IMG/VR virus record: IMGVR_UViG_3300012948_000001 | Location: 1-56,955 of that record | Direction: 5' to 3' (one strand) | DNA: 56,955 bases | Source: a virus | Lineage: Duplodnaviria > Caudoviricetes | In this document: in pieces, positions 445 to 56,337 of the stretch | Numbering within the stretch: the first letter of the stretch is position 1 | Layout: every line of letters starts with the position of its first letter | The notes under the pieces: generated by a model | What the model saw: only the letters and a program-made list of their open reading frames with translations | Databases searched by the model: none | What the model was told of the DNA's origin: nothing | Made by a program: the position numbers and the translations under genes

Positions 445-451
445 GATATTT

Positions 452-492
452 GGAGGCTGGTGCTGAAAATAGGGTTCGATTCCCTATCTCCA
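452..492 (+). ncRNA. tRNA-like minihelix (acceptor-like stem plus T-arm); not a full tRNA
   Basis: GGAGG...taggg-TTCGATT-cccta-TCTCC-A; no D or anticodon arm. Confidence 0.4.
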
Positions 493-516
493 ATTGTAGT
501 TCGGAAAGGAGGGTAG

Positions 517-1138: not shown

Positions 1139-1317
1139 TGCTGAGCGCACACGATGATGCACATATGGAGGAAATCCTAAAGGGTTATGGCGATTGGTTC
1201 TCGGCTAAATTGCTGAGACTGATTGCCAAAGCTGACGGACAGAACATGGAAAGAATCAGACTCGGATTTCCTGAGCACGTAGCAGCATACGAGAGGTACG
1301 TAGAAACCGGAAAGTAA
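1138..1317 (+). CDS. Hypothetical early protein
   Basis: TGATG coupling with the upstream gene. Confidence 0.7.
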   Translation: MLSAHDDAHMEEILKGYGDWFSAKLLRLIAKADGQNMERIRLGFPEHVAAYERYVETGK

Positions 1318-1357
1318 CGCAATCGTAGCCAGTCAAAGGCTGGCTACAGTGGCGTTA
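1315..1357 (+). promoter_or_regulatory. Intergenic RNA hairpin, candidate RNase III-type processing site
   Basis: taacgc..gtagccagtc-aaa-ggctggctac..gcgtta between a stop codon and a GGAGGTGA SD. Confidence 0.5.
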
Positions 1358-1374
1358 TTGAGAGGAGGTGAGAT

Positions 1375-2467: not shown

Positions 2468-2809
2468 ATGAGCGCACCGGAGAGAATTGATAGTCGGGAT
2501 TTGGATTTGGATGATCCCGAGGATAAAGCTCTTTACGATGAACTAGAAGAGAATAGTGAAGAGCATCCCGACGATGGTGTATTTCCGATTCGAGCAGACA
2601 AGTTTGTCGAATATGCTCAGGAATATGCCGATGAGACAGGATCATTCTCATATCGGATAACAAACCCGAGAACGTTTCGTGAGGAGGCAATTGATCTCTC
2701 GCAAGAGTGGCCTTTCAATCACATTGATTGGGAGGCAGCAGCAGAGGACTTGCGCGATGGCTGGTTTGAAGTAGAATACAAAGGTGCAACGTACTACGTC
2801 CGACCTTAG
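2468..2809 (+). CDS. Acidic protein, possibly ArdA-like antirestriction DNA mimic
   Basis: Very acidic; IDWEAAAEDL...VEYKGATYY resembles ArdA C-terminal region (recalled similarity, not searched). Confidence 0.45.
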   Translation: MSAPERIDSRDLDLDDPEDKALYDELEENSEEHPDDGVFPIRADKFVEYAQEYADETGSFSYRITNPRTFREEAIDLSQEWPFNHIDWEAAAEDLRDGWFEVEYKGATYYVRP

Positions 2810-2847
2810 TTTAAAGGAGCAGCCTGCGGGCTGTTCCCTTAAGCTAA
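2806..2847 (+). promoter_or_regulatory. Intergenic RNA hairpin, candidate RNase III-type site
   Basis: ttagtttaaaggagcagcc-tgcg-ggctgttcccttaagctaa directly before AGGAGGTGA. Confidence 0.55.
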
Positions 2848-5297: not shown

Positions 5298-5343
5298 GTA
5301 GATTAAATAGAGCAGATCGAAAGGTCTGCTCTGCCTAATCTAT
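5298..5343 (+). promoter_or_regulatory. Intergenic RNA hairpin (processing site or terminator)
   Basis: gtagatta..agagcagatc-gaaa-ggtctgctct..taatctat. Confidence 0.5.
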
Positions 5344-8736: not shown

Positions 8737-8757
8737 TCCTACTAAGGTCGGGGAGAG

Positions 8758-8793
8758 AATGAGAGGGTCGGAAACGGCCCTCTCATTTTATTT
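8758..8793 (+). terminator. Rho-independent terminator
   Basis: aatgagagggtcg-gaaa-cggccctctcatt followed by T-rich tail. Confidence 0.75.
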
Positions 8794-8825
8794 CAATAGC
8801 GTGCTTACTTTAAAAGTTCGCACCC

Positions 8826-8854
8826 TTGACAATCACTTCCGCATCTGCTACGCT
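8826..8854 (+). promoter_or_regulatory. Housekeeping-sigma promoter
   Basis: TTGACA-17-TACGCT with TG extension. Confidence 0.7.
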
Positions 8855-8859
8855 TCACG

Positions 8860-9110
8860 TTGCATCCCGTAGATGCGCTCGCGGAATCAGGGGAGATAGC
8901 ACGGGAATGTGCGCCTATGCTATCTCCCCCCGCTTATTCAGATACAAAAAATCCGACGGACGGAGTATTCTGAATGAGAGATAGTGTAATCGGTCGGTGT
9001 GTCCTCCTTACCGATGACCCTGTACTATCTCTCATGGAGGATAGTCCGTCTATCTTCCATAACAGAGGGAGGTGGTTAGTTACGCGCAAAGGCTAGCTAC
9101 CTCCCTCTTA
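8860..9110 (+). ncRNA. Structured leader or sRNA with three long hairpins
   Basis: Stems 8890-8929, 8959-9050 and 9064-9108; no credible ORF. Confidence 0.55.
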
Positions 9111-9136
9111 CTTTGTAATCTACTCGGGAGGCTATC

Positions 9137-9490
9137 ATTCGGCATACGCTTGCGATACTAACTGTATGTGCAGCTTTTATAGCAGCAACAGCAGGACAAG
9201 CACAAGCGAAACATCCGAAGAAAGAGCATGTACCGAACTGGATAGTACGAGCGTTCTTATGTATTCATAGGTACGAGGGTAGCTGGCAAGATAACTATGC
9301 GCCCTATTGGGGTGGGCTCCAAATGGATGTTTCGTTCATGTATAGCTATGGACGAGACATGATTCGTAAGTATAATGGATATGCAAACAGATGGAGTCCG
9401 CACGATCAGATCGTAGTTGGCTATCGTGCATGGAAAGTGAGGGGTTTCCAACCATGGCCGAACACGGCCAGGCATTGCCACTTGTTGTAG
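9137..9490 (+). CDS. Secreted Rpf-like (resuscitation-promoting factor) lytic transglycosylase with non-canonical ATT start (not in ORF track)
   Basis: GGGAGG SD at 9126; signal peptide ending AQA; CIHRYEGSW...YWGGLQM...ANRWSPHDQI...RGFQPWPNTARHC matches the Rpf motif set with catalytic Glu. Confidence 0.8.
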   Translation: MRHTLAILTVCAAFIAATAGQAQAKHPKKEHVPNWIVRAFLCIHRYEGSWQDNYAPYWGGLQMDVSFMYSYGRDMIRKYNGYANRWSPHDQIVVGYRAWKVRGFQPWPNTARHCHLL

Positions 9491-9966: not shown

Positions 9967-11536
9967 AAAGCCATTCCAAGAACAGGAGCTAGAGCAGCTC
10001 GTCCCACTAGATAATTGTGCGAATTGGGATGAGATGGGTTGCTTCAAGACTAGCACCGTTTTGTGGTGGTTGGAAGAGAAGTTCAAGCATAAGGCATACG
10101 AAGTAGATAGTGATGGTGTAGCAGAACAGACTGTCGTATCTGAGAAAGCACCTAAAGTCCTGGTCATTACCACTCGATCTGGTAAAGGAACTTATTGGTT
10201 GCTGACTCCGCAGGTACATCCCAATTGGGAGTTGTTCAATATCCAACGCAAGAAGGTAACTCTTGTCATTGACGATATGGAACTCCCCGTGGATGAAATT
10301 CCTCTTAACGGTAATCATCCTATGTTGTTTGTGGCGCATTATGATGTATTTACCGAGAGGAAACCGCGGAAGAAAGCGATTGATAAAGCGGCTAAGAAGG
10401 AAGTAACAGAGGAATCGAATCCTCTGCTGGAGCAAATGATTCAACTTCATGGTAAACAAGATCAGGGTCTAGTCGATGAGCTTTTGAAGATCGAATGGGA
10501 TGCTGTAGTTATTGATGAAGCGCACCGAATCAAAGGCAGAAAGACCGGCTGGACTAAGAACATCAAGAAACTCAAGACGAAGAGGAAGCAAGTAATGACC
10601 GGGACTGGTTTCATCAATCGGCCCGATGAGATATGGTCATTGCTACACTTCCTTGAACCTAGAAGGTTTACCTCGTATTGGAGATTCCGTGAAAGATACT
10701 GCGATGAGGAAGTTGATTGGTCAGGCTTTAGAAAAATCAAGGGAATCAAGCCGGATACCGAACAAGAGTTTAAGGAGCTTATTCGGTCATTCGGCCCAAG
10801 ACACACAAAGCGAGATGTGTTCCCAAACTTGCCAGAGCCAATCTTCTCACCAATCGAGGTAGAACTTAATGCGACGCAGTTGTCTATGTATGAAGCAATC
10901 AGGGACGAGTTGTATGCCCTTGACCAACAAGGGTTGCCCATACTCGCGCCCAACGTCCTATCGGCGCTCCAAAGATTGCGGCAAATCTGTGTCGCAACAC
11001 CAGAAGTAGTTAGGGATTACTATGATCCAGAAGAGGGACGAAGAAGGCAAGAGATTAAGCTTGTCGAACCTTCCTCTAAACTCGATGCTCTCATGGAAAT
11101 TGTCGAGGGGCTTGAATGGGACGATGAACGTAGAGATCAAGTTGTCGTTTTCTCTAACTTCAAAGACCCTATCGAACTTGCCAAAGCAAGATTTGATAAA
11201 GCTGGAATCTCTTATATCCACATGCAACAAAGTGATAACGACCGCAAGAGATATGAGAAATGGTCAATAGAATTCCCGAAGAGAGAAAAGCAGGTATTTA
11301 TCTGTACCTTGCAACTGGGAAGCGAAAGTATCAGTCTTACTTCAGCGACTACCTGTGTTTTCTTAGACAGGTCGTGGAGTCCGAAAGACAACGAGCAAGG
11401 GATTTCAAGAGTATGGAGGCCGGGACAGGAATATCCGGCAAACATCATTCACATTAACGCAAAGGACACGGTTGATGAAAGGGTCTTCCGTGTAAACGAA
11501 ATTAAGAAAAGTTGGTTTACGCAAATCTTTGGCTGA
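9953..11536 (+). CDS. SNF2-family helicase
   Basis: DEMGCFKT, DEAH, MTGT, LRQI, SW.P..NEQGISRVWRPGQ motifs. Confidence 0.9.
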   Translation: MEITKKPFQEQELEQLVPLDNCANWDEMGCFKTSTVLWWLEEKFKHKAYEVDSDGVAEQTVVSEKAPKVLVITTRSGKGTYWLLTPQVHPNWELFNIQRKKVTLVIDDMELPVDEIPLNGNHPMLFVAHYDVFTERKPRKKAIDKAAKKEVTEESNPLLEQMIQLHGKQDQGLVDELLKIEWDAVVIDEAHRIKGRKTGWTKNIKKLKTKRKQVMTGTGFINRPDEIWSLLHFLEPRRFTSYWRFRERYCDEEVDWSGFRKIKGIKPDTEQEFKELIRSFGPRHTKRDVFPNLPEPIFSPIEVELNATQLSMYEAIRDELYALDQQGLPILAPNVLSALQRLRQICVATPEVVRDYYDPEEGRRRQEIKLVEPSSKLDALMEIVEGLEWDDERRDQVVVFSNFKDPIELAKARFDKAGISYIHMQQSDNDRKRYEKWSIEFPKREKQVFICTLQLGSESISLTSATTCVFLDRSWSPKDNEQGISRVWRPGQEYPANIIHINAKDTVDERVFRVNEIKKSWFTQIFG

Positions 11537-11792
11537 TGTTCACCATACTATCCGACATACCCAACTCAGACATATGGAGAGAATGGGTGACAAACCCTTA
11601 CCCTCACTGAAGGAGGCATTAGCTCACGACCCTGAACTAAGAAAAGAAATAAAACGGATGGTAAGTGACAGAGCGATAGTCGCTGAACGTAAAGCCAAGA
11701 ACATAGAAGGAGCAATTAAACGAAGTCACAGGAATAAAGTTTGGTCACTAGAGGAATGGAAAGATCACATGGATGAACGGGGCTGTTATTAA
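11529..11792 (+). CDS. Hypothetical protein
   Basis: Overlap with helicase stop. Confidence 0.55.
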   Translation: MADVHHTIRHTQLRHMERMGDKPLPSLKEALAHDPELRKEIKRMVSDRAIVAERKAKNIEGAIKRSHRNKVWSLEEWKDHMDERGCY

Positions 11793-11828
11793 CCTCCGGT
11801 CAAACGGAAAAAAGATTGTCCGGAGGGC

Positions 11829-11857
11829 TTGACATTCGCGTCGCCGTGTGGTAGTGT
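11829..11857 (+). promoter_or_regulatory. Housekeeping-sigma promoter
   Basis: TTGACA-17-TAGTGT with TG extension. Confidence 0.7.
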
Positions 11858-11998
11858 CTCAAATTCCTCTCCGGCGGGATGACGCATTCCGCTGGGTGGA
11901 ACATCCAGGTTACGGGGGAAGTTGAATTAGTCCCAGCTTCCCCCGCTAACCTCGCTAATACGGGTAACGCACATAACGCGGTGAACTAGGAGGTTCAG

Positions 11999-12142
11999 TT
12001 GTCCGCAAAAAATAGAAAAGTAGGATGGCCGAAAGGCAGAAAGCTGTCTGTTCAGCATAAGAGAGCAATCTCAGATGGCATGAAAAACAGCAGTCACGTA
12101 ACTGCAAGCCAACGTAAGAGACGTGAGAATGAGCGGAATTAA
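11999..12142 (+). CDS. Small basic NUMOD3-like protein, 47 aa (not in ORF track)
   Basis: AGGAGG SD with TTG; KGRKLSVQHKRAISDGMK. Confidence 0.6.
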   Translation: MSAKNRKVGWPKGRKLSVQHKRAISDGMKNSSHVTASQRKRRENERN

Positions 12143-51868: not shown

Positions 51869-52179
51869 TTTTTCAAACTGTTGAACAGAGCAGTTACCAT
51901 ATCCTGATCTTCCTTATCGGACAAGCTTTGTGCAAGATTGATAATCACTTTAGCCGCGGCGAGTTCTGTAGTTTCTTTTTCTGCTCCTGTCGCCAGTTGC
52001 ACGACTTTTCCTAGTGCAGTATCCAAGTGTGCAACAGCGAATTCTCTGATGGCCCTTTTGATCTCTTCTACTGAGGCATCAGGTGAAGGCAGTTTATTTA
52101 GAAGCTCTAGGAGCTGATCTTGTTTGTTAACTAGATCACTTAGAGTTAGATCATCTACATCTTTGAAACTTTCTGACAT
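51865..52179 (-). CDS. Putative terminase small subunit
   Basis: First late gene; helical ALGKVVQLA....E...LAAAK.I pattern. Confidence 0.45.
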   Translation of the reverse strand: MSESFKDVDDLTLSDLVNKQDQLLELLNKLPSPDASVEEIKRAIREFAVAHLDTALGKVVQLATGAEKETTELAAAKVIINLAQSLSDKEDQDMVTALFNSLKK

Positions 52180-52262: not shown

Positions 52263-52418
52263 ATTCGGAATGCTCCAGCTACATTAACCAACAGTCGAAT
52301 CTTGGGGGTTGAATTACGCATAGAATGCTTTAGAGTACGAGTTAGGTCAGTTAGGTCGGCTGGGCGTCCGGTAGGAGTCGGCGCAGCTAGGAGCCACTGA
52401 CAAAGCTAGACACAACCT

Positions 52419-52901
52419 AATTTGGGCTAGTTGAACGAGCGTGTGCGCCCATGCATGACACCGAAAGGACTGTTATGCCTGAAAACACACAGTCGTTTGA
52501 AGACGTGCTCGTCTCACTCGGCATGTCGTCCAAGGAATCCGACCCGCGCATGAAAGACCTGGGTAAGCGCATCATGACCCAGCTTCGCGGAGAGGTGGAT
52601 CGCGTAGTGGTTGCTTGCTACGCGGCGGATCGACTCGACGAGAACATGACTGCACTCGCCCTCGCTGGTGATACCGATGGTACGCTAGTGTTCGCCGACG
52701 TCATCGACGTGCCCGACGCTACCATCAGTCGCATCAGGAGCGCCTGCTACAGCAACGCTGTGCAGAACAAGCGAATCAAGAACGTCTCGTTCATCCGCGT
52801 CAACGACCACAATGGCAATGCGTTCGCCCTCGTGGTCAAGAGGCTCAACACCAGCAACTAACCTCGCATCGGCGCATACGTTCGTTCAACTAGCTCAGAT
52901 T
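52419..52901 (+). repeat. 31-bp inverted repeat flanking a whole ORF
   Basis: 52419-52449 vs 52871-52901; all four deviations are G-U pairs on the + strand. Confidence 0.85.
52475..52861 (+). CDS. First early gene, hypothetical
   Basis: AAAGGA SD; strongly C/G-ending codons. Confidence 0.75.
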   Translation: MPENTQSFEDVLVSLGMSSKESDPRMKDLGKRIMTQLRGEVDRVVVACYAADRLDENMTALALAGDTDGTLVFADVIDVPDATISRIRSACYSNAVQNKRIKNVSFIRVNDHNGNAFALVVKRLNTSN

Positions 52902-52921
52902 GCTAACCGAAAGGATTGGCT

Positions 52922-53185
52922 ATGTCCAAATCCGAAGCGGCTAGATTGGTCGATGCCTATCTGGCTGAACAGGAGAACGACGAGCTAACCGAACGGGAGC
53001 GATTGCGTCAGTGTGGTGTAGTTGACGTATCGCATCGTACCGGCAAGCGTCGTCGTGGCAATAGCGTCCTGAAGCGTCAGCCTAAGACGTATTCAGCGGC
53101 CAGCACATACATCATCCGTTGTCCGAAGACGGGTGAACAGATCGCAACAACCAAGGTGCTCATCAAAAAGAGAATCCCTGTATAG
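52922..53185 (+). CDS. Hypothetical basic protein
   Basis: AAAGGA SD; followed by terminator. Confidence 0.65.
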   Translation: MSKSEAARLVDAYLAEQENDELTERERLRQCGVVDVSHRTGKRRRGNSVLKRQPKTYSAASTYIIRCPKTGEQIATTKVLIKKRIPV

Positions 53186-53198
53186 GGATTCTCTTTTT
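53165..53198 (+). terminator. Rho-independent terminator (possibly bidirectional)
   Basis: aaaaagagaatccct-gtat-agggattctcttttt. Confidence 0.75.
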
Positions 53199-53259
53199 GT
53201 GCAGCATAAGGGAACAATTCGCGCTTCGCGATTTTCCTTCCGAAAGGAGGTGAAAACCC

Positions 53260-53403
53260 ATGAAATTCATCGTCGAGATGTTTACTTCCAAGCGTGTTTG
53301 GGAAATGGTCGGCAGTAACATGACGATCGAGGAAGTGATCCAACACTTCGGAAACATGCAATACGCGCCATTTCGTCTGTACGTTATGGCGGAAAAAAGC
53401 TAA
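53260..53403 (+). CDS. Small hypothetical protein, 47 aa (not in ORF track)
   Basis: AAAGGAGGTGA SD then ATG. Confidence 0.65.
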   Translation: MKFIVEMFTSKRVWEMVGSNMTIEEVIQHFGNMQYAPFRLYVMAEKS

Positions 53404-53426
53404 TCGCGTTAACGCGGTTAGTTCCG

Positions 53427-53611
53427 AGGTAATAAATCTAATTAATTACCTGGGAACTAATCGTGCAACGTCGTGTCAACAGGGTATATGGATCGCTTAT
53501 ACGAGGTATAAGCGTTTCATTTCACCAATTTCACCTATTACACACCGTCAGAAAGTTACAGTTATCCCTCGAAACAAATAAACCAGGTACTAAATCTAAT
53601 CATTTACCTGG
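53427..53611. repeat. Two 27-bp palindromic direct repeats in an AT-rich noncoding region
   Basis: aggtaataaatctaattaattacctgg (53427) and aggtactaaatctaatcatttacctgg (53585). Confidence 0.7.
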
Positions 53612-53767
53612 TAATTAATGTACGTAGTAGTGTAGTATGGTGAATTTGACAATCCGGGGAAGTGATAAACATAATTAAACACTGGCCGTGTCTCAACGAG
53701 GGATTTGCGCTACTTGTCCCTCAGACTTTTGACAGATCGAGGCTTTTTACGCGGAGCTGTCAAACCC

Positions 53768-53795
53768 TTGACAGTTGCGCGCAACATGCTACGAT
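53768..53795 (+). promoter_or_regulatory. Early promoter overlapped by inverted repeats
   Basis: TTGACA-16-TACGAT; CTGTCAA-n4-TTGACAG. Confidence 0.6.
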
Positions 53796-53820
53796 CCTAC
53801 ACATAACGAAAGGAGGAACA

Positions 53821-53925
53821 ATGACGCTTAAGGAAGCACTTTTGATTCAGCGTGAAAAGGCATCTCTTCGCGGCGATGTTGTTCTCGTTATGCGGATCAA
53901 CAAGCTGCTTGCGAAGTTTTGCTGA
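53821..53925 (+). CDS. Small peptide, 34 aa
   Basis: AAGGAGG SD then ATG. Confidence 0.6.
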   Translation: MTLKEALLIQREKASLRGDVVLVMRINKLLAKFC

Positions 53926-54003
53926 TAGAGGGAATGGAGAATCCGGAGGAATAAGCCAGTAAGTATGGTAGGGGCTACTGGCAAACGATAGGAGGTGATA
54001 CAG

Positions 54004-54192
54004 ATGGATGCAGCAACCATTACCTCGCTAGTCATCGTGATCGGATCTATTGTGATCGGTTTTGCACAATGGATCGCTGCGGTTTACGTTGCAGCAGAGA
54101 TCGGATACTCGAAAGGTCGTAGTGGACTCTTTTGGGGTCTGATCTTCGGATGGCTCGGCGTGTTGGCAGTATACGTGCTGCCTGAAAAGTAA
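54004..54192 (+). CDS. Small membrane protein
   Basis: GGAGGTGA SD; KGRSG..WG..FG.LG motif. Confidence 0.7.
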   Translation: MDAATITSLVIVIGSIVIGFAQWIAAVYVAAEIGYSKGRSGLFWGLIFGWLGVLAVYVLPEK

Positions 54193-54369
54193 TACTAACC
54201 CGAAAGGGTTAGTAAACCGGAAGTCAGTAAAAAGCAGCGTAGAGATAACATCGTGAGAAAAACTGTGTCGCGTTATGGCTAACCGCGAGATGGTAGAGGA
54301 CATAAAAGCCATCGTCCGGAACTGCGATGCTCTGACGGCTATAAGACGCTCCGGTTTATTAACCCTTTT
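54193..54369 (+). ncRNA. Candidate structured RNA A
   Basis: 19-bp closing stem 54203-54221/54350-54368 around a multibranch core. Confidence 0.6.
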
Positions 54370-54387
54370 AGGTCATTTAATTCGGCC

Positions 54388-54416
54388 TTGCAATCAGGGA
54401 CGGTTTGGTGTATAAT
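54388..54416 (+). promoter_or_regulatory. Strong early promoter
   Basis: TTGCAA-17-TATAAT. Confidence 0.7.
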
Positions 54417-54453
54417 CCGTTCCGCGGATCTACGGAAAGGGGATATCGCACTT

Positions 54454-54579
54454 ATGGCACCTATTGGTGATCCTGAGAAGGTTTGGGAATTGCCTGCACC
54501 GTTGGATGTACCTAGTCCAGACGACGTGCCGGTTGAATTGCCCATTCCTGTTGAAACTCCAGAAAAGGTGGAGGTTTAG
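54454..54579 (+). CDS. Pro/Glu-rich peptide, 41 aa
   Basis: AAAGGGGA SD; MAPIGDPEKVWELPAP... Confidence 0.65.
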   Translation: MAPIGDPEKVWELPAPLDVPSPDDVPVELPIPVETPEKVEV

Positions 54580-54762
54580 TAAGGCGCACTCAGGAAGATA
54601 TTTATTATGGAAACCCCTTATTCCTGAGGGCTTTGTCCAGGCTCTCGAATAGGAATAAGAGAGGGTTAGAGTTAGGACAACTCTAACGAACCATAAATGT
54701 CTTGATATCCTGTCCAGTAGTGGTAGCTGCTGAGATAAGGGAGTGCGTCTTACTAAATCTCT
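54570..54762 (+). ncRNA. Candidate structured RNA B
   Basis: 22-bp closing stem 54570-54591/54741-54762; nested hairpins with complementary loops. Confidence 0.65.
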
Positions 54763-54781
54763 ACCCGGAAAGGAGGTGATT

Positions 54782-55198
54782 ATGCTTCCAGAGTATGTTG
54801 GTAGCCAGCATGTTCGAGCGATCCGAATTTTTGGGGTCAATCGAAAGACACTTATGCTTGAATCTCTGAATGGTGAAGTTTGGGTGCCAGGTGAGATCAA
54901 GCAAAGTGTTTGTGGACATGCAAAGCACCATGGCTTTACGAAGCCAGAAGTAAAGTGCTCCTGTGGGATTTGGAGTTGCAAGTCCCGCAAGGCATTGAAG
55001 CGAACTTTTCCTCATTTGTATTACGGGGAAAGGATCGTGAGCGCACAAGTGGAGCAATGGGGTAGGGTAATCGAGCACAGAGACGGTTATCGTAGCGAGT
55101 ATGCCAGAATAGTGCCAGGCACTATCCAGTTCTGGCCTCGACCCCACAAACCGAGTAACAAAAAGCTCATCAACTTTCTACGCGCAAAGTATTCTTAG
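54782..55198 (+). CDS. CxCG-motif protein of unknown function
   Basis: AGGAGGTGA SD; CSCGIWS...WGRVIEH..GYRS. Confidence 0.75.
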   Translation: MLPEYVGSQHVRAIRIFGVNRKTLMLESLNGEVWVPGEIKQSVCGHAKHHGFTKPEVKCSCGIWSCKSRKALKRTFPHLYYGERIVSAQVEQWGRVIEHRDGYRSEYARIVPGTIQFWPRPHKPSNKKLINFLRAKYS

Positions 55199-55212
55199 AA
55201 AGGAGGTGAAAC

Positions 55213-55380
55213 ATGATCTTTGACAGCAAAGATCGTGAGGATATGAAAGTTGCGGTTTGGGCTATCGGAATCGCGGCCGATCATATCAAGTGCAGCATTT
55301 GCGGTCGTTATTGGGATACAATTGATCCCTGCTGTCTCTGCAACGTAACGTTGTGGGTTACGGGCAGAAAGAATAGCTAA
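55213..55380 (+). CDS. Small Zn-ribbon protein, 55 aa (not in ORF track)
   Basis: AGGAGGTGA SD; CSIC...CCLC. Confidence 0.65.
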   Translation: MIFDSKDREDMKVAVWAIGIAADHIKCSICGRYWDTIDPCCLCNVTLWVTGRKNS

Positions 55381-55386
55381 CCCGAT

Positions 55387-55457
55387 AAGGGTTAGTAAGC
55401 TAGTGAGAGGAACCAGGCGATTATTGCGAGCCAACTTTCACTAGCTCACTAACTCTT
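55387..55457 (+). promoter_or_regulatory. Intergenic long RNA stem, candidate RNase III-type site
   Basis: 23-bp stem with two G-U pairs and one mismatch. Confidence 0.6.
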
Positions 55458-55480
55458 AAGGAAAGGAGGTGAAAGACCTA

Positions 55481-55846
55481 ATGAAGAAAGAAGAGGCAAT
55501 TGTAGCGTTGCGTGAACTTGCAGACAAGCTTGAGAGTCTGGAGTTTACGGAGGACAGTGAAGCATGGTTTACGAATCCGTCGATTTATATCTATGGCGGA
55601 ACGAAAACCGAACTTCGCATGTTTGCACGCACAATGCGAAGTGTGAAGAAGTCTGCGAGTGATTCGAGCTTTTCACTCTATACGCCTTGGCAGAATAATT
55701 GGCGCATTGAGATGTATGCTCAGAATCGTGAGCAGGTCTGCAAGAAGAAGGTCGTCGGAACTGAGGAAGTTCCGGAGCGAACTACTCCTGCATATACCAA
55801 GGAGATCGTGGAATGGGAATGCGATCCCATCCTTGGTGTAGACTGA
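55481..55846 (+). CDS. Hypothetical protein
   Basis: REQVCKKKVVGTEEV...VEWEC.PIL; strong SD. Confidence 0.75.
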   Translation: MKKEEAIVALRELADKLESLEFTEDSEAWFTNPSIYIYGGTKTELRMFARTMRSVKKSASDSSFSLYTPWQNNWRIEMYAQNREQVCKKKVVGTEEVPERTTPAYTKEIVEWECDPILGVD

Positions 55847-55859
55847 AGGGAAAACGCAC

Positions 55860-55994
55860 ATGACAGATCAAGAGATCAAAGAGCAGATCGCTCTTTATCT
55901 TGAGCGCAAGAATCAAGTAGCGCAGAAAAACGGGAAAGAGACTCACGCACAAAGTCCAATGGAAGCAGCATTGGCAAAAGCTATCGCCAGATAG
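55860..55994 (+). CDS. Small hypothetical protein, 44 aa (not in ORF track)
   Basis: AAGGGA SD then ATG. Confidence 0.5.
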   Translation: MTDQEIKEQIALYLERKNQVAQKNGKETHAQSPMEAALAKAIAR

Positions 55995-56044
55995 CTAGTT
56001 CATCCGGAGCATTCTTTCGGGAATGCTCCCATGAGCTAGTTATC
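55990..56044 (+). promoter_or_regulatory. Intergenic hairpin with UUCG loop, candidate RNase III-type site
   Basis: gatagctagttcat..ggagcattct-ttcg-ggaatgctcc..atgagctagttatc. Confidence 0.6.
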
Positions 56045-56057
56045 GAAAGGAGGTGAA

Positions 56058-56294
56058 ATGACACATAAGCTGAAGTTCAAGCAAGAGGTATCTGTACATC
56101 ATCTCAAGAAGAATGATGAGTATGTGATGCATGGGTTTTACCTCGACGAAGATGAGGAGTATATCTGGATCGAAGGTACTGTCGGAGACAAGATTGGTCG
56201 CGTCATGCAGTTTCCGAAAGCTCAAGTGTTGTTTCTTGAGTACGAAGAGCGCAACAAACTACGGGATTCATACGACGAACATTGGGAAAAGTAA
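56058..56294 (+). CDS. Hypothetical protein
   Basis: AGGAGGTGA SD then ATG. Confidence 0.7.
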   Translation: MTHKLKFKQEVSVHHLKKNDEYVMHGFYLDEDEEYIWIEGTVGDKIGRVMQFPKAQVLFLEYEERNKLRDSYDEHWEK

Positions 56295-56337
56295 GTCTGA
56301 TGCAGCAATCTTTCGGGATTGCTGCACTGGATTTATT
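56290..56337 (+). promoter_or_regulatory. Intergenic hairpin with UUCG loop
   Basis: agtaagtctgatgcagcaatct-ttcg-ggattgctgcactggatttatt. Confidence 0.55.

What the first reader, a model, noticed from the sequence alone, without database searches (positions are those of the whole stretch)
52419..56337. Family of intergenic RNA stems with a shared YUAGU box that segments the early transcript, some enclosing cargo
Seen: long stems sit between a stop codon and the next SD at 52419/52871, 53407-53470, 54203/54350, 54570/54741, 55387-55457, 55990-56044 and 56290-56337, and past the junction at 1315, 2806, 5298 and 9064. Deviations from perfect symmetry are mostly G-U pairs on the + strand, indicating RNA-level selection. 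Most left arms carry (C/U)UAGU (gggttagtaa, gtttagtaa, ggctagtt, cggttagtt, cttagtt, agctagtt). Known: T7 and SPO1/SP82 early mRNAs are cut by RNase III at such hairpins, and UNAGU fits the WNAGW part of the RNase III consensus. Unusual: the loops range from 4 nt to about 130-150 nt structured RNAs to a 420-nt ORF. Inference: a modular excision system that releases discrete RNAs from one early transcript.
Basis: partly seen in the sequence, partly recalled or inferred. Interest (0 to 1): 0.85.

Follow-up and report, generated by a model that had tools for sequence, protein, structure and literature searches.

The report
Phage early-mRNA RNase III-type punctuation stems
A soil phage separates its small early genes with long RNA stems that look like cutting and capping signals for the host double-strand RNase, a familiar kind of signal in an unusual, fully paired and sometimes long-range form.

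Summary
Eleven very stable stems lie in the early rightward operon of this complete 57-kb phage genome. They are selected on the + (mRNA) strand: the longest unbroken paired runs are 32, 25 and 20 bp, against at most 18 on the other strand and at most 19 in 6 shuffles, and G·U outnumbers A·C 33 to 8. Eight of the 11 carry YTAGT in the 5' arm (0.29 occurrences expected). A distant relative (metagenome contig L008) shows the same design, with the box in 4 of 7 stems. There an equivalent long stem around the first early ORF keeps the box, while every other pair has changed on both sides.

The RNase III reading is the best explanation but is untested. The same box is invariant in 4 of the 6 RNase III sites annotated in Bacillus phage SPO1. 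However, a covariance model of those sites finds nothing here, so this is a functional analogue and not a family member.

The "cargo" stems are not exceptional. B. subtilis RNase III is reported to cut 10-36-bp duplexes that close up to 505 nt, and it releases scRNA from such a stem.

This scan has noted intercistronic phage hairpins before on other DNA (213 notes). Verdict: a new variant of a known kind, of moderate interest.

The parts
52418..52457 (+). S1 left arm in the 5' leader of the first early gene. Carries CTAGTTGA.
   Evidence: 37 of 40 positions pair with 52863-52902
52475..52861 (+). 128-aa ORFan enclosed with its SD by S1. It lies in a GC-rich island (56-58% against about 47%).
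52863..52902 (+). S1 right arm, between the stop of the first ORF and the SD of the second.
53413..53465 (+). S2 hairpin (25 positions, 23 paired, loop 3). TTAGT box in the lower stem. The upper part is a palindrome that recurs near 53580.
54193..54214 (+). Small local hairpin that competes for the S3 box. It would cap the 3' end of the upstream product.
54198..54221 (+). S3 left arm, with a TTAGT box.
54222..54349 (+). 128-nt structured non-coding insert closed by S3 (cargo A).
   Evidence: no Rfam match
54350..54373 (+). S3 right arm. A promoter-like site follows at 54388-54416.
54567..54591 (+). S4 left arm. The TAG of its TTAGT box is the stop codon of the 41-aa ORF at 54455-54579.
54592..54740 (+). 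149-nt structured insert closed by S4 (cargo B). It holds a hairpin with the 8-mer GTGGTAGC, which also occurs in the equivalent inserts of L007 and L008.
54741..54765 (+). S4 right arm. It ends 6 nt before the SD of the 138-aa Cys-rich protein gene.
55376..55396 (+). Small local hairpin that holds the stop codon and competes for the S5 box.
55386..55458 (+). S5 hairpin (24 positions, 23 paired, 25 nt inside). Has TTAGT and CTAGT boxes and one A.C mismatch.
55990..56044 (+). S6 hairpin. Begins at the stop codon and carries a CTAGT box.
56290..56337 (+). S7 hairpin. It has no box. The lower stem starts at the stop codon, followed by an A.C mismatch and a GC-rich upper stem.
1313..1359 (+). J1 hairpin, same two-tier design as S7, no box.
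2806..2847 (+). J2 hairpin, two-tier design. The TAG of its TTAGT box is the stop codon. The right arm runs into the SD.
5298..5343 (+). J3 hairpin, two-tier design, no box.
9064..9108 (+). J4 hairpin (18 bp) with a TTAGT box, in a hairpin-rich leader of about 700 nt.
53157..53206 (+). Canonical terminator-like hairpin with a T run after the second ORF. Listed for contrast with the stems; it is not a member.

Best explanation
The stems are RNA punctuation signals in the early polycistronic transcript. The host double-strand-specific endonuclease RNase III most likely cuts them.

Proposed mechanism (all steps inferred):
- The cuts turn one long message into one- or two-gene messages.
- Each upstream product ends in a remnant half-stem, or in the small local hairpin that overlaps the box. 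This would block 3' exonucleases.
- Each downstream product begins a few bases before a very strong ribosome-binding site.
- The long-range stems work the same way as rRNA or scRNA processing stems. S1 would release the first early mRNA with its two ends paired. S3 and S4 would release two structured RNAs of about 130-190 nt.
- The YUAGU box, usually with a G.U wobble 2-3 nt upstream of it, is a shared reactivity determinant in the 5' arm.

Shown: the stems, their selection on the RNA strand, the box, and their conservation in a relative.
Inferred: the cleavage, the enzyme and the fates of the products.
For: 1. RNA-level selection on the + strand.
2. Duplex lengths of 18-40 bp and enclosed spans of 3-405 nt fall within the range reported for B. 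subtilis RNase III targets (10-36 bp, up to 505 nt; PMC11780869 section 24).
3. The stems have no T tails, while the same genome uses canonical terminators.
4. They lie between a stop codon and the next strong SD, and they are concentrated in the small-gene early block.
5. The box is strongly enriched in 5' arms here (8 of 11 stems). It is also enriched in the distant relative L008 (4 of 7 stems, 5 TAGT where 0.43 is expected, P 9e-5).
6. S1 and its L008 counterpart share CTAGTTGA / TCAACTAG, while all 10 pairs above the box differ on both sides and still pair.
7. YTAGT within GTTGYTAGT is invariant in RS-A to RS-D, which are 4 of the 6 RNase III sites annotated in SPO1 record AF031901.1.
8. 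A G.U wobble lies at -2 or -3 of the box in 8 of 12 box stems. PMC11780869 reports more U-G wobbles in the distal box.
9. The phage encodes no recognisable RNase III or dsRBD domain, so a host enzyme is implied.
Against: - No cleavage data exist. The only public run that holds this DNA is a DNA run that may be its source.
- The host is unknown.
- A covariance model of SPO1 RS-A to RS-D finds nothing in the window or in L007-L009. The best hit with filters off has E 0.48 and covers only a small local hairpin. The invariant 3'-arm ATGGAGCC is absent from the stems.
- In SPO1 the box lies partly in an internal loop. Here it is fully paired.
- The distance from the box to the top of the helix varies from 1 to 26 bp, so no fixed geometry is evident.
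- In 3 of the 12 box stems (S4, J2, 8E) the TAG of the box is simply the stop codon of the upstream gene.
- The box was chosen after seeing the data.
- Comparative support rests essentially on one 6.7-kb contig plus two short ones.
Confidence: 0.6

Rival explanations
1. The stems act by structure alone, without endonucleolytic cutting. They would block RNase J1 and 3' exonucleases, insulate the translation of neighbouring cistrons, or act as ribosome-driven switches. In the switch version, the small 5' hairpin that holds the stop codon competes with the long stem.
For: - Local hairpins overlap the box in S3 and S5 (54193-54214 and 55376-55396). Similar ones occur in S2 and in L008 stems 8D and 8H.
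- The right arms end 3-12 nt before strong SDs.
- Ribosome binding near a 5' end is reported to stabilise SP82 mRNA (passage in PMC7509114 citing Hue 1995).
Against: - Perfect duplexes of 24-40 bp are expected RNase III substrates in any cell that has the enzyme (plus established biochemistry).
- A structure-only role does not explain a conserved oriented box.
Confidence: 0.15
2. The YUAGU box is read by some other factor. This could be a phage-encoded RNA-binding protein or nuclease among the many early ORFans, or another host RNase. The stems would merely present the box.
For: - The box is conserved in orientation while the rest of each stem drifts.
- None of the 10 early proteins tested has a PHROG family.
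- The 138-aa Cys-rich protein beside cargo B has no Pfam family. Its model has no PDB match at E 0.001 or better by Foldseek.
Against: - The same box occurs in annotated RNase III sites of an unrelated Bacillus phage, which points to a host factor.
- No candidate protein is shared between this phage and SPO1. Only the DNA polymerase was compared, and it is under 29% identical.
Confidence: 0.1
3. The stems are DNA-level elements. They would be short conserved linkers where gene cassettes are exchanged by recombination (as proposed for PeSL motifs of T4-type phages), or inverted ends of miniature insertions.
For: - S1 and its L008 counterpart enclose ORFs of 128 and 129 aa with no BLASTP similarity. 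Both ORFs lie in GC-rich islands.
- The left arms of S3 and S5 are nearly identical over about 22 nt, which suggests duplication.
- The PeSL abstracts describe intergenic promoter/stem-loop motifs that mediate shuffling.
Against: - The G.U against A.C asymmetry and the strand-specific run lengths.
- The stems keep pairing through changes on both sides.
- They do not terminate, and only S3 is followed by a promoter-like site.
- No transposase or target duplication was seen.
- This role could coexist with an RNA function.
Confidence: 0.08
4. The stems are transcription terminators or attenuators without a U tract.
For: They are stable GC-containing hairpins placed after stop codons.
Against: - None of the 11 is called as a + strand terminator.
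- Most downstream genes have no promoter of their own.
- The genome has canonical terminators with a T tail where the operon is interrupted (53157-53206, 8756-8789).
Confidence: 0.05

Closest known systems
Bs-RNase III processing sites of Bacillus phages SP82 and SPO1 (RS-A to RS-F in GenBank AF031901.1; Panganiban and Whiteley 1983, seen only in reference lists)
   Same: - Intercistronic position between a stop codon and the next SD in the early host-takeover genes.
- They form a repeated family.
- YTAGT in the 5' arm. It is invariant in RS-A to RS-D.
   Different: - SPO1 sites are local hairpins of about 50 nt built as lower stem, internal loop and upper stem, with an invariant 3'-arm ATGGAGCC.
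- Here the stems are almost fully paired, lack that 3' motif and reach across as much as 405 nt.
- The covariance model of RS-A to RS-D does not detect them.
Long-range RNase III target duplexes in B. subtilis mRNAs, and the scRNA precursor stem
   Same: - Duplexes of 10-36 bp that close up to 505 nt, cut on both strands with a 2-nt 3' overhang (PMC11780869 section 24).
- scRNA is released from a stem around 255 nt (PMC1935012).
- S1, S3 and S4 have this geometry.
   Different: - Those are host RNAs.
- Here the duplexes are arrayed in a phage early operon and share a sequence box.
- Cleavage is not shown here.
RNase III processing signals of the coliphage T7 early region (R0.3 to R1.3; own knowledge, plus a passage in PMC1935012)
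   Same: - Hairpins between early genes of one long transcript.
- The two-tier hairpins J1, J2, J3 and S7 (lower stem, mismatch, upper stem) resemble T7 sites with an internal bubble.
   Different: - T7 sites have larger asymmetric internal loops and are cut once.
- The host group is different.
- No sequence relation was tested.
PeSL promoter/stem-loop cassettes of T4-type phages (PMC2839356 and PMC4122927, abstracts read)
   Same: Repeated intergenic motifs in regions of small variable early genes, possibly marking where cassettes are exchanged.
   Different: PeSLs combine a strong promoter with a terminating stem-loop and are proposed to act as DNA recombination sites. The stems here lack promoters and T tails and show RNA-strand selection.

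Membership tests
SPO1/SP82-type Bs-RNase III site (RS-A to RS-D) | Detected by a covariance model built from the four annotated sites. | tested here: not met
   Model R1 recovers 5 SPO1 sites at E 1e-11 or better. It gives no hit at E 10 or better in the window or L007-L009 with default filters. With filters off the best hit is E 0.48, on a small local hairpin only.
SPO1/SP82-type Bs-RNase III site (RS-A to RS-D) | Invariant 5'-arm GTTGYTAGT. | tested here: inconclusive
   YTAGT is present in 8 of 11 stems, usually preceded by GG. The GTTG spacing is not kept.
SPO1/SP82-type Bs-RNase III site (RS-A to RS-D) | Invariant 3'-arm ATGGAGCC. | tested here: not met
   CATGGAGCC with up to 1 mismatch gives 2 matches in the window, where 12.45 are expected by chance. 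Neither is in a stem.
SPO1/SP82-type Bs-RNase III site (RS-A to RS-D) | Intercistronic position in early genes, between a stop codon and the next SD. | tested here: met
Generic bacterial RNase III substrate | Intramolecular RNA duplex of about 10-36 bp or longer on the transcribed strand. | tested here: met
   18-40 paired positions per stem. The reference range comes from PMC11780869.
Generic bacterial RNase III substrate | Staggered cleavage that leaves a 2-nt 3' overhang and depends on rnc. | not testable with these tools
   No RNA run holds the DNA. The host is unknown.
Intrinsic (rho-independent) terminator | GC-rich hairpin followed by a T run. | tested here: not met
   None of the 11 stems appears among the + strand terminator-like sites.
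PeSL cassette of T4-type phages | Strong sigma-70-like promoter joined to a terminating stem-loop. | tested here: not met
   Only S3 is followed by a promoter-like site, and there are no T tails. The definition comes from the abstracts.
Any Rfam family (ribozymes, riboswitches, tRNA-like RNAs) for the enclosed RNAs | Match to a curated covariance model. | tested here: not met
   There are 0 matches at gathering score in the window. At E 1 or better in L001 and L007-L009 there is only one chance-level hit, outside the inserts. No tRNA was found.

The most novel reading that the evidence does not exclude
The box-bearing stems form a dedicated excision grammar, and its long-range members deliver functional non-coding RNAs.

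Cargo B (54592-54740) is a conserved structured RNA with a GGUA-capped hairpin. It always lies between a Pro-rich peptide gene and a Cys-rich 138-aa protein gene. It may be circularly permuted in one relative. After excision, with its ends paired, it would act together with that protein as a new phage ribonucleoprotein.

The small hairpin that holds the stop codon would couple cutting to translation of the upstream gene.
Probability: 0.12. Interest if true: 0.7.

Novelty: new variant of a known kind. Interest (0 to 1): 0.4.

Why it matters
If RNase III does cut these stems, the phage offers a compact natural set of substrates for a Gram-positive RNase III. The set spans hairpins with a 3-nt loop up to a duplex that closes a whole gene. 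All members share one short box, which also marks the SPO1 sites although the structural context is different.

That would make the sequence determinants of Gram-positive RNase III directly testable. They are less well defined than those of E. coli.

It would also show that phages use rRNA-style end-clamping to stabilise their very first message. Practically, such stems could serve as insulator or processing parts for operon design in Bacillus-like hosts.

On its own the finding extends a phenomenon known since the 1970s-80s and seen many times in this scan.

Tried and rejected
- Relatives by DNA. No match in the phage collection. The closest cultured phages are under 29% identical in DNA polymerase.
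- The SNF2 helicase, P0006 and P0012 gave no viral contigs.
- A genome-contig scan with the Cys-rich protein alignment found none.
- L002-L006 and L010-L019 are too distant or of different GC content to compare.
- The S1 cargo protein has no homologue. Neither it nor the L008 counterpart has a usable Atlas hit.
- Sequencing runs. No RNA holder is listed. The single DNA run may be the source, and laying its contigs showed no variants.
- A 16-letter pattern for the GGUA hairpin found 76 viral contigs. That is about the chance level by my own rough estimate of the collection's size. The hits look like coding repeats, and none lies near a homologue of the Cys-rich protein.
- blastn-short among the cargo inserts gave only 11-12-nt matches (E 0.014 and 0.056), so cargo homology and the suggested circular permutation remain weak.
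- The integron attC and Mini-III (ACCU) readings were considered by eye and dropped. No test was run for either.
- The link from SP82 to the annotated SPO1 sites, and the Hue 1995 details, rest on reference lists, one review passage and recall. The primary papers are not held.
- Supplementary tables of PMC11780869, which list the cleavage sites and the motif, are closed. Its Figure 3G could not be seen. The match of the box to the B. subtilis motif is therefore untested.
- My gene list is crude. It missed two small ORFs and mis-started later genes, so I give no exact count of gaps with and without stems.

Full report
Context. The window is a complete IMG/VR virus record of 56,955 bp with direct terminal repeats. 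The - strand gene ends at 52179. From about 52.45 kb, small genes with very strong Shine-Dalgarno sequences run on the + strand, across the record's end and on to about 24 kb. The replication genes lie there: an SNF2 helicase, a PD-(D/E)XK nuclease, a DUF3987 protein and a UDG-fused family A polymerase. The phage has no close cultured relative; its polymerase is under 29% identical to any phage record. The block has no DNA match in the phage collection. None of the 10 early proteins tested has a PHROG family. The only public run that holds the DNA is a soil metagenome DNA run that may be its source.

Observation. S1, S4 and S3 give the three longest unbroken Watson-Crick plus G.U runs within 700 nt on the + strand of the whole genome: 32, 25 and 20 bp. 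The - strand reaches 18 at most, and six shuffles reach 16-19. Within the stems, G.U oppositions outnumber A.C by 33 to 8. Adding the main helix of S2, which one search left out of its total, gives 35 to 8. Base composition predicts a ratio near 1.1 to 1. Selection therefore acts on the + strand RNA and not on duplex DNA.

Strong 64-nt hairpin windows are three to five times denser in the small-gene early block than elsewhere. The figures are 2.5 per kb (52.18-56.96 kb) and 1.8 per kb (1-10 kb), against 0.5 per kb in the replication block and 0.64 per kb in the late block on its own strand. None of the stems is followed by a T run. Canonical terminators do exist at 53157-53206 and 8756-8789.

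The box. YTAGT occurs 9 times in 8 of 11 left arms, where 0.29 is expected (P 3e-11). Of the 12 YTAGT on the + strand between 52180 and 56955, 8 lie in stems. Only S6 also has TAGT in its right arm, so the signal is oriented. A G.U wobble, with the G in the 5' arm, sits 2 or 3 nt before the T of the box in 8 of 12 box stems from the window and L008. By my rough estimate about 3 would be expected. Both counts were made after seeing the data.

Three caveats apply to the box:
- In S4, J2 and L008 stem 8E, the TAG of the box is the upstream gene's stop codon.
- S7, J1 and J3 lack the box.
- The left arms of S3 and S5 are near-identical, so they may be duplicates.

By eye there are two designs. The first is almost perfect duplexes with the box (S1-S6, J4). 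The second is two-tier hairpins (J1, J2, J3, S7): an A/U-rich lower stem that starts at the stop codon, an A.C mismatch near position 10, and a GC-rich upper stem with a 3- or 4-nt loop.

Relatives. Relatives therefore came from the search for related loci with the alignment. The useful ones are three metagenome contigs: L007 (2.2 kb), L008 (6.7 kb) and L009 (1.6 kb).

L008 repeats the architecture:
- It has a divergent control region.
- Its first early ORF (129 aa) is closed by a duplex of 21 bp, or about 30 bp with the basal extension seen in the fold. The duplex carries the same CTAGTTGA / TCAACTAG box as S1.
- Four more intercistronic stems lie between stop codons and SDs.
- A 27-29-bp duplex around a 124-128-nt insert lies directly upstream of the Cys-rich protein homologue. 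A homologue of the Pro-rich peptide precedes it.

TAGT is in 4 of the 7 left arms of L008 (5 occurrences, 0.43 expected, P 9e-5). Above the shared box, all 10 aligned pairs of S1 and its L008 counterpart differ on both sides and still pair. The two enclosed proteins show no BLASTP similarity. Both lie in GC-rich islands. L007 and L009 also have a 16-22-bp duplex around 160-210 nt just upstream of the homologue. The arm sequences are unrelated and lack TAGT. Structure is thus conserved where sequence is not. The sample is only three contigs.

What it most likely is. The duplexes have the size and geometry reported for B. subtilis RNase III targets: 10-36 bp, up to 505 nt between the two cuts, and a 2-nt 3' overhang (PMC11780869 section 24). 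scRNA is released from a stem that closes 255 nt (PMC1935012). [quoted passage not shown]

I checked this. GenBank AF031901.1 annotates six "RNAse III site" features, RS-A to RS-F. RS-A to RS-D share an invariant GTTG-TAGT in the 5' arm and ATGGAGCC in the 3' arm. RS-E and RS-F have neither. My blind hairpin scan of SPO1 had already found this family.

Membership in that family fails, however. A covariance model of RS-A to RS-D recovers five SPO1 sites. It finds nothing in the window or in L007-L009, even with filters off. The 3'-arm motif is absent. In SPO1 the box lies partly in an internal loop, and here it is paired. The phage has no RNase III or dsRBD domain of its own.

I therefore read the stems as host RNase III cut-and-cap signals of a distinct, fully paired type, with confidence about 0.6. 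The small local hairpins that overlap the box and contain or adjoin the stop codon (54193-54214 and 55376-55396) would cap the 3' end of the upstream product after cutting. They could also compete with the long stem before cutting. This step is inference.

Rivals. The alternatives are structure-only stabilisers or insulators, a different box-reading factor, DNA-level recombination linkers of the PeSL kind (abstracts), and U-less terminators. They are weighed in the Rival explanations section. The recombination-linker idea draws some support from the unrelated ORFs inside homologous S1-type stems, and it could coexist with an RNA role.

The cargo. Cargo A and cargo B have no Rfam or tRNA match. 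Cargo B shares the 8-mer GTGGTAGC, the top of a GGUA-capped hairpin, with the equivalent inserts of L007 and L008. It occurs once in each insert. Two occurrences are found on both strands of the whole window, where 1.3 are expected. An A/U-rich 11-mer is shared by L007 and L008. In L007 the two motifs stand in the reverse order, which would fit a circular permutation, but the evidence is thin. The neighbouring Cys-rich protein folds with confidence (pLDDT 86). It has no PDB match at E 0.001 or better by Foldseek.

Novelty and score. Intercistronic RNase III hairpins in phage early transcripts are textbook for T7 and SP82/SPO1. This scan holds 213 notes with these words in at least 207 genomes. 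Several follow-ups there filed similar families under the SPO1 type.

What is different here:
- The stems are fully paired.
- The SPO1 box is kept without the rest of the SPO1 motif.
- The stems are used rRNA-style around the first early gene and around two structured RNAs.
- The first of these clamps is conserved in a distant relative.

That makes this a new variant of a known kind, with interest about 0.4.

Noticed in passing
window 54388-55198; L008 5468-6383; L007 312-1032; L009 582-1411: A conserved module. A stem-closed structured RNA (cargo B, with a GGUA-capped hairpin in the window, L007 and L008) lies directly upstream of a 138-aa protein with invariant Cys/His positions. The window and L008 also have a small Pro-rich peptide gene in front. 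The protein has no Pfam family and no PDB fold match at E 0.001 or better. The motif order in L007 suggests a circular permutation of the RNA.
   Followed up: partly
window 52400-53150; L008 1100-2050: In both phages the first two early ORFs form a GC-rich island (56-62% against about 47%) that ends at a canonical terminator. The first ORFs (128 and 129 aa) show no detectable similarity to each other or to anything else.
   Followed up: partly
window 53427-53451 and about 53580-53606: The upper part of S2 is a 25-nt imperfect palindrome that recurs about 155 nt downstream with the same centre. Both copies lie upstream of the promoter-like sites at 53646 and 53768, so they look like operators.
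   Followed up: no
window 450-493: The intergenic hairpin has a core (470-486) that reads like a tRNA T arm (GGTTCGATTCC) inside a 7-bp outer stem, giving a tRNA-like minihelix. Rfam gives only weak T-arm matches (tmRNA E 0.22), and ARAGORN finds no tRNA.
   Followed up: partly
window 8737-9453 and 11537-12122: Two long non-coding stretches are packed with very stable hairpins (MFE -289 and -198 kcal/mol for 727 and 596 nt). The first contains J4.
   Followed up: no
L098 (SPO1 AF031901.1) 10542-10594, - strand: A seventh SPO1 hairpin matches the RS-A to RS-D model at E 1e-11. The record does not annotate it as an RNase III site; the terminator TL2.7 (10576-10599) overlaps it.
   Followed up: no
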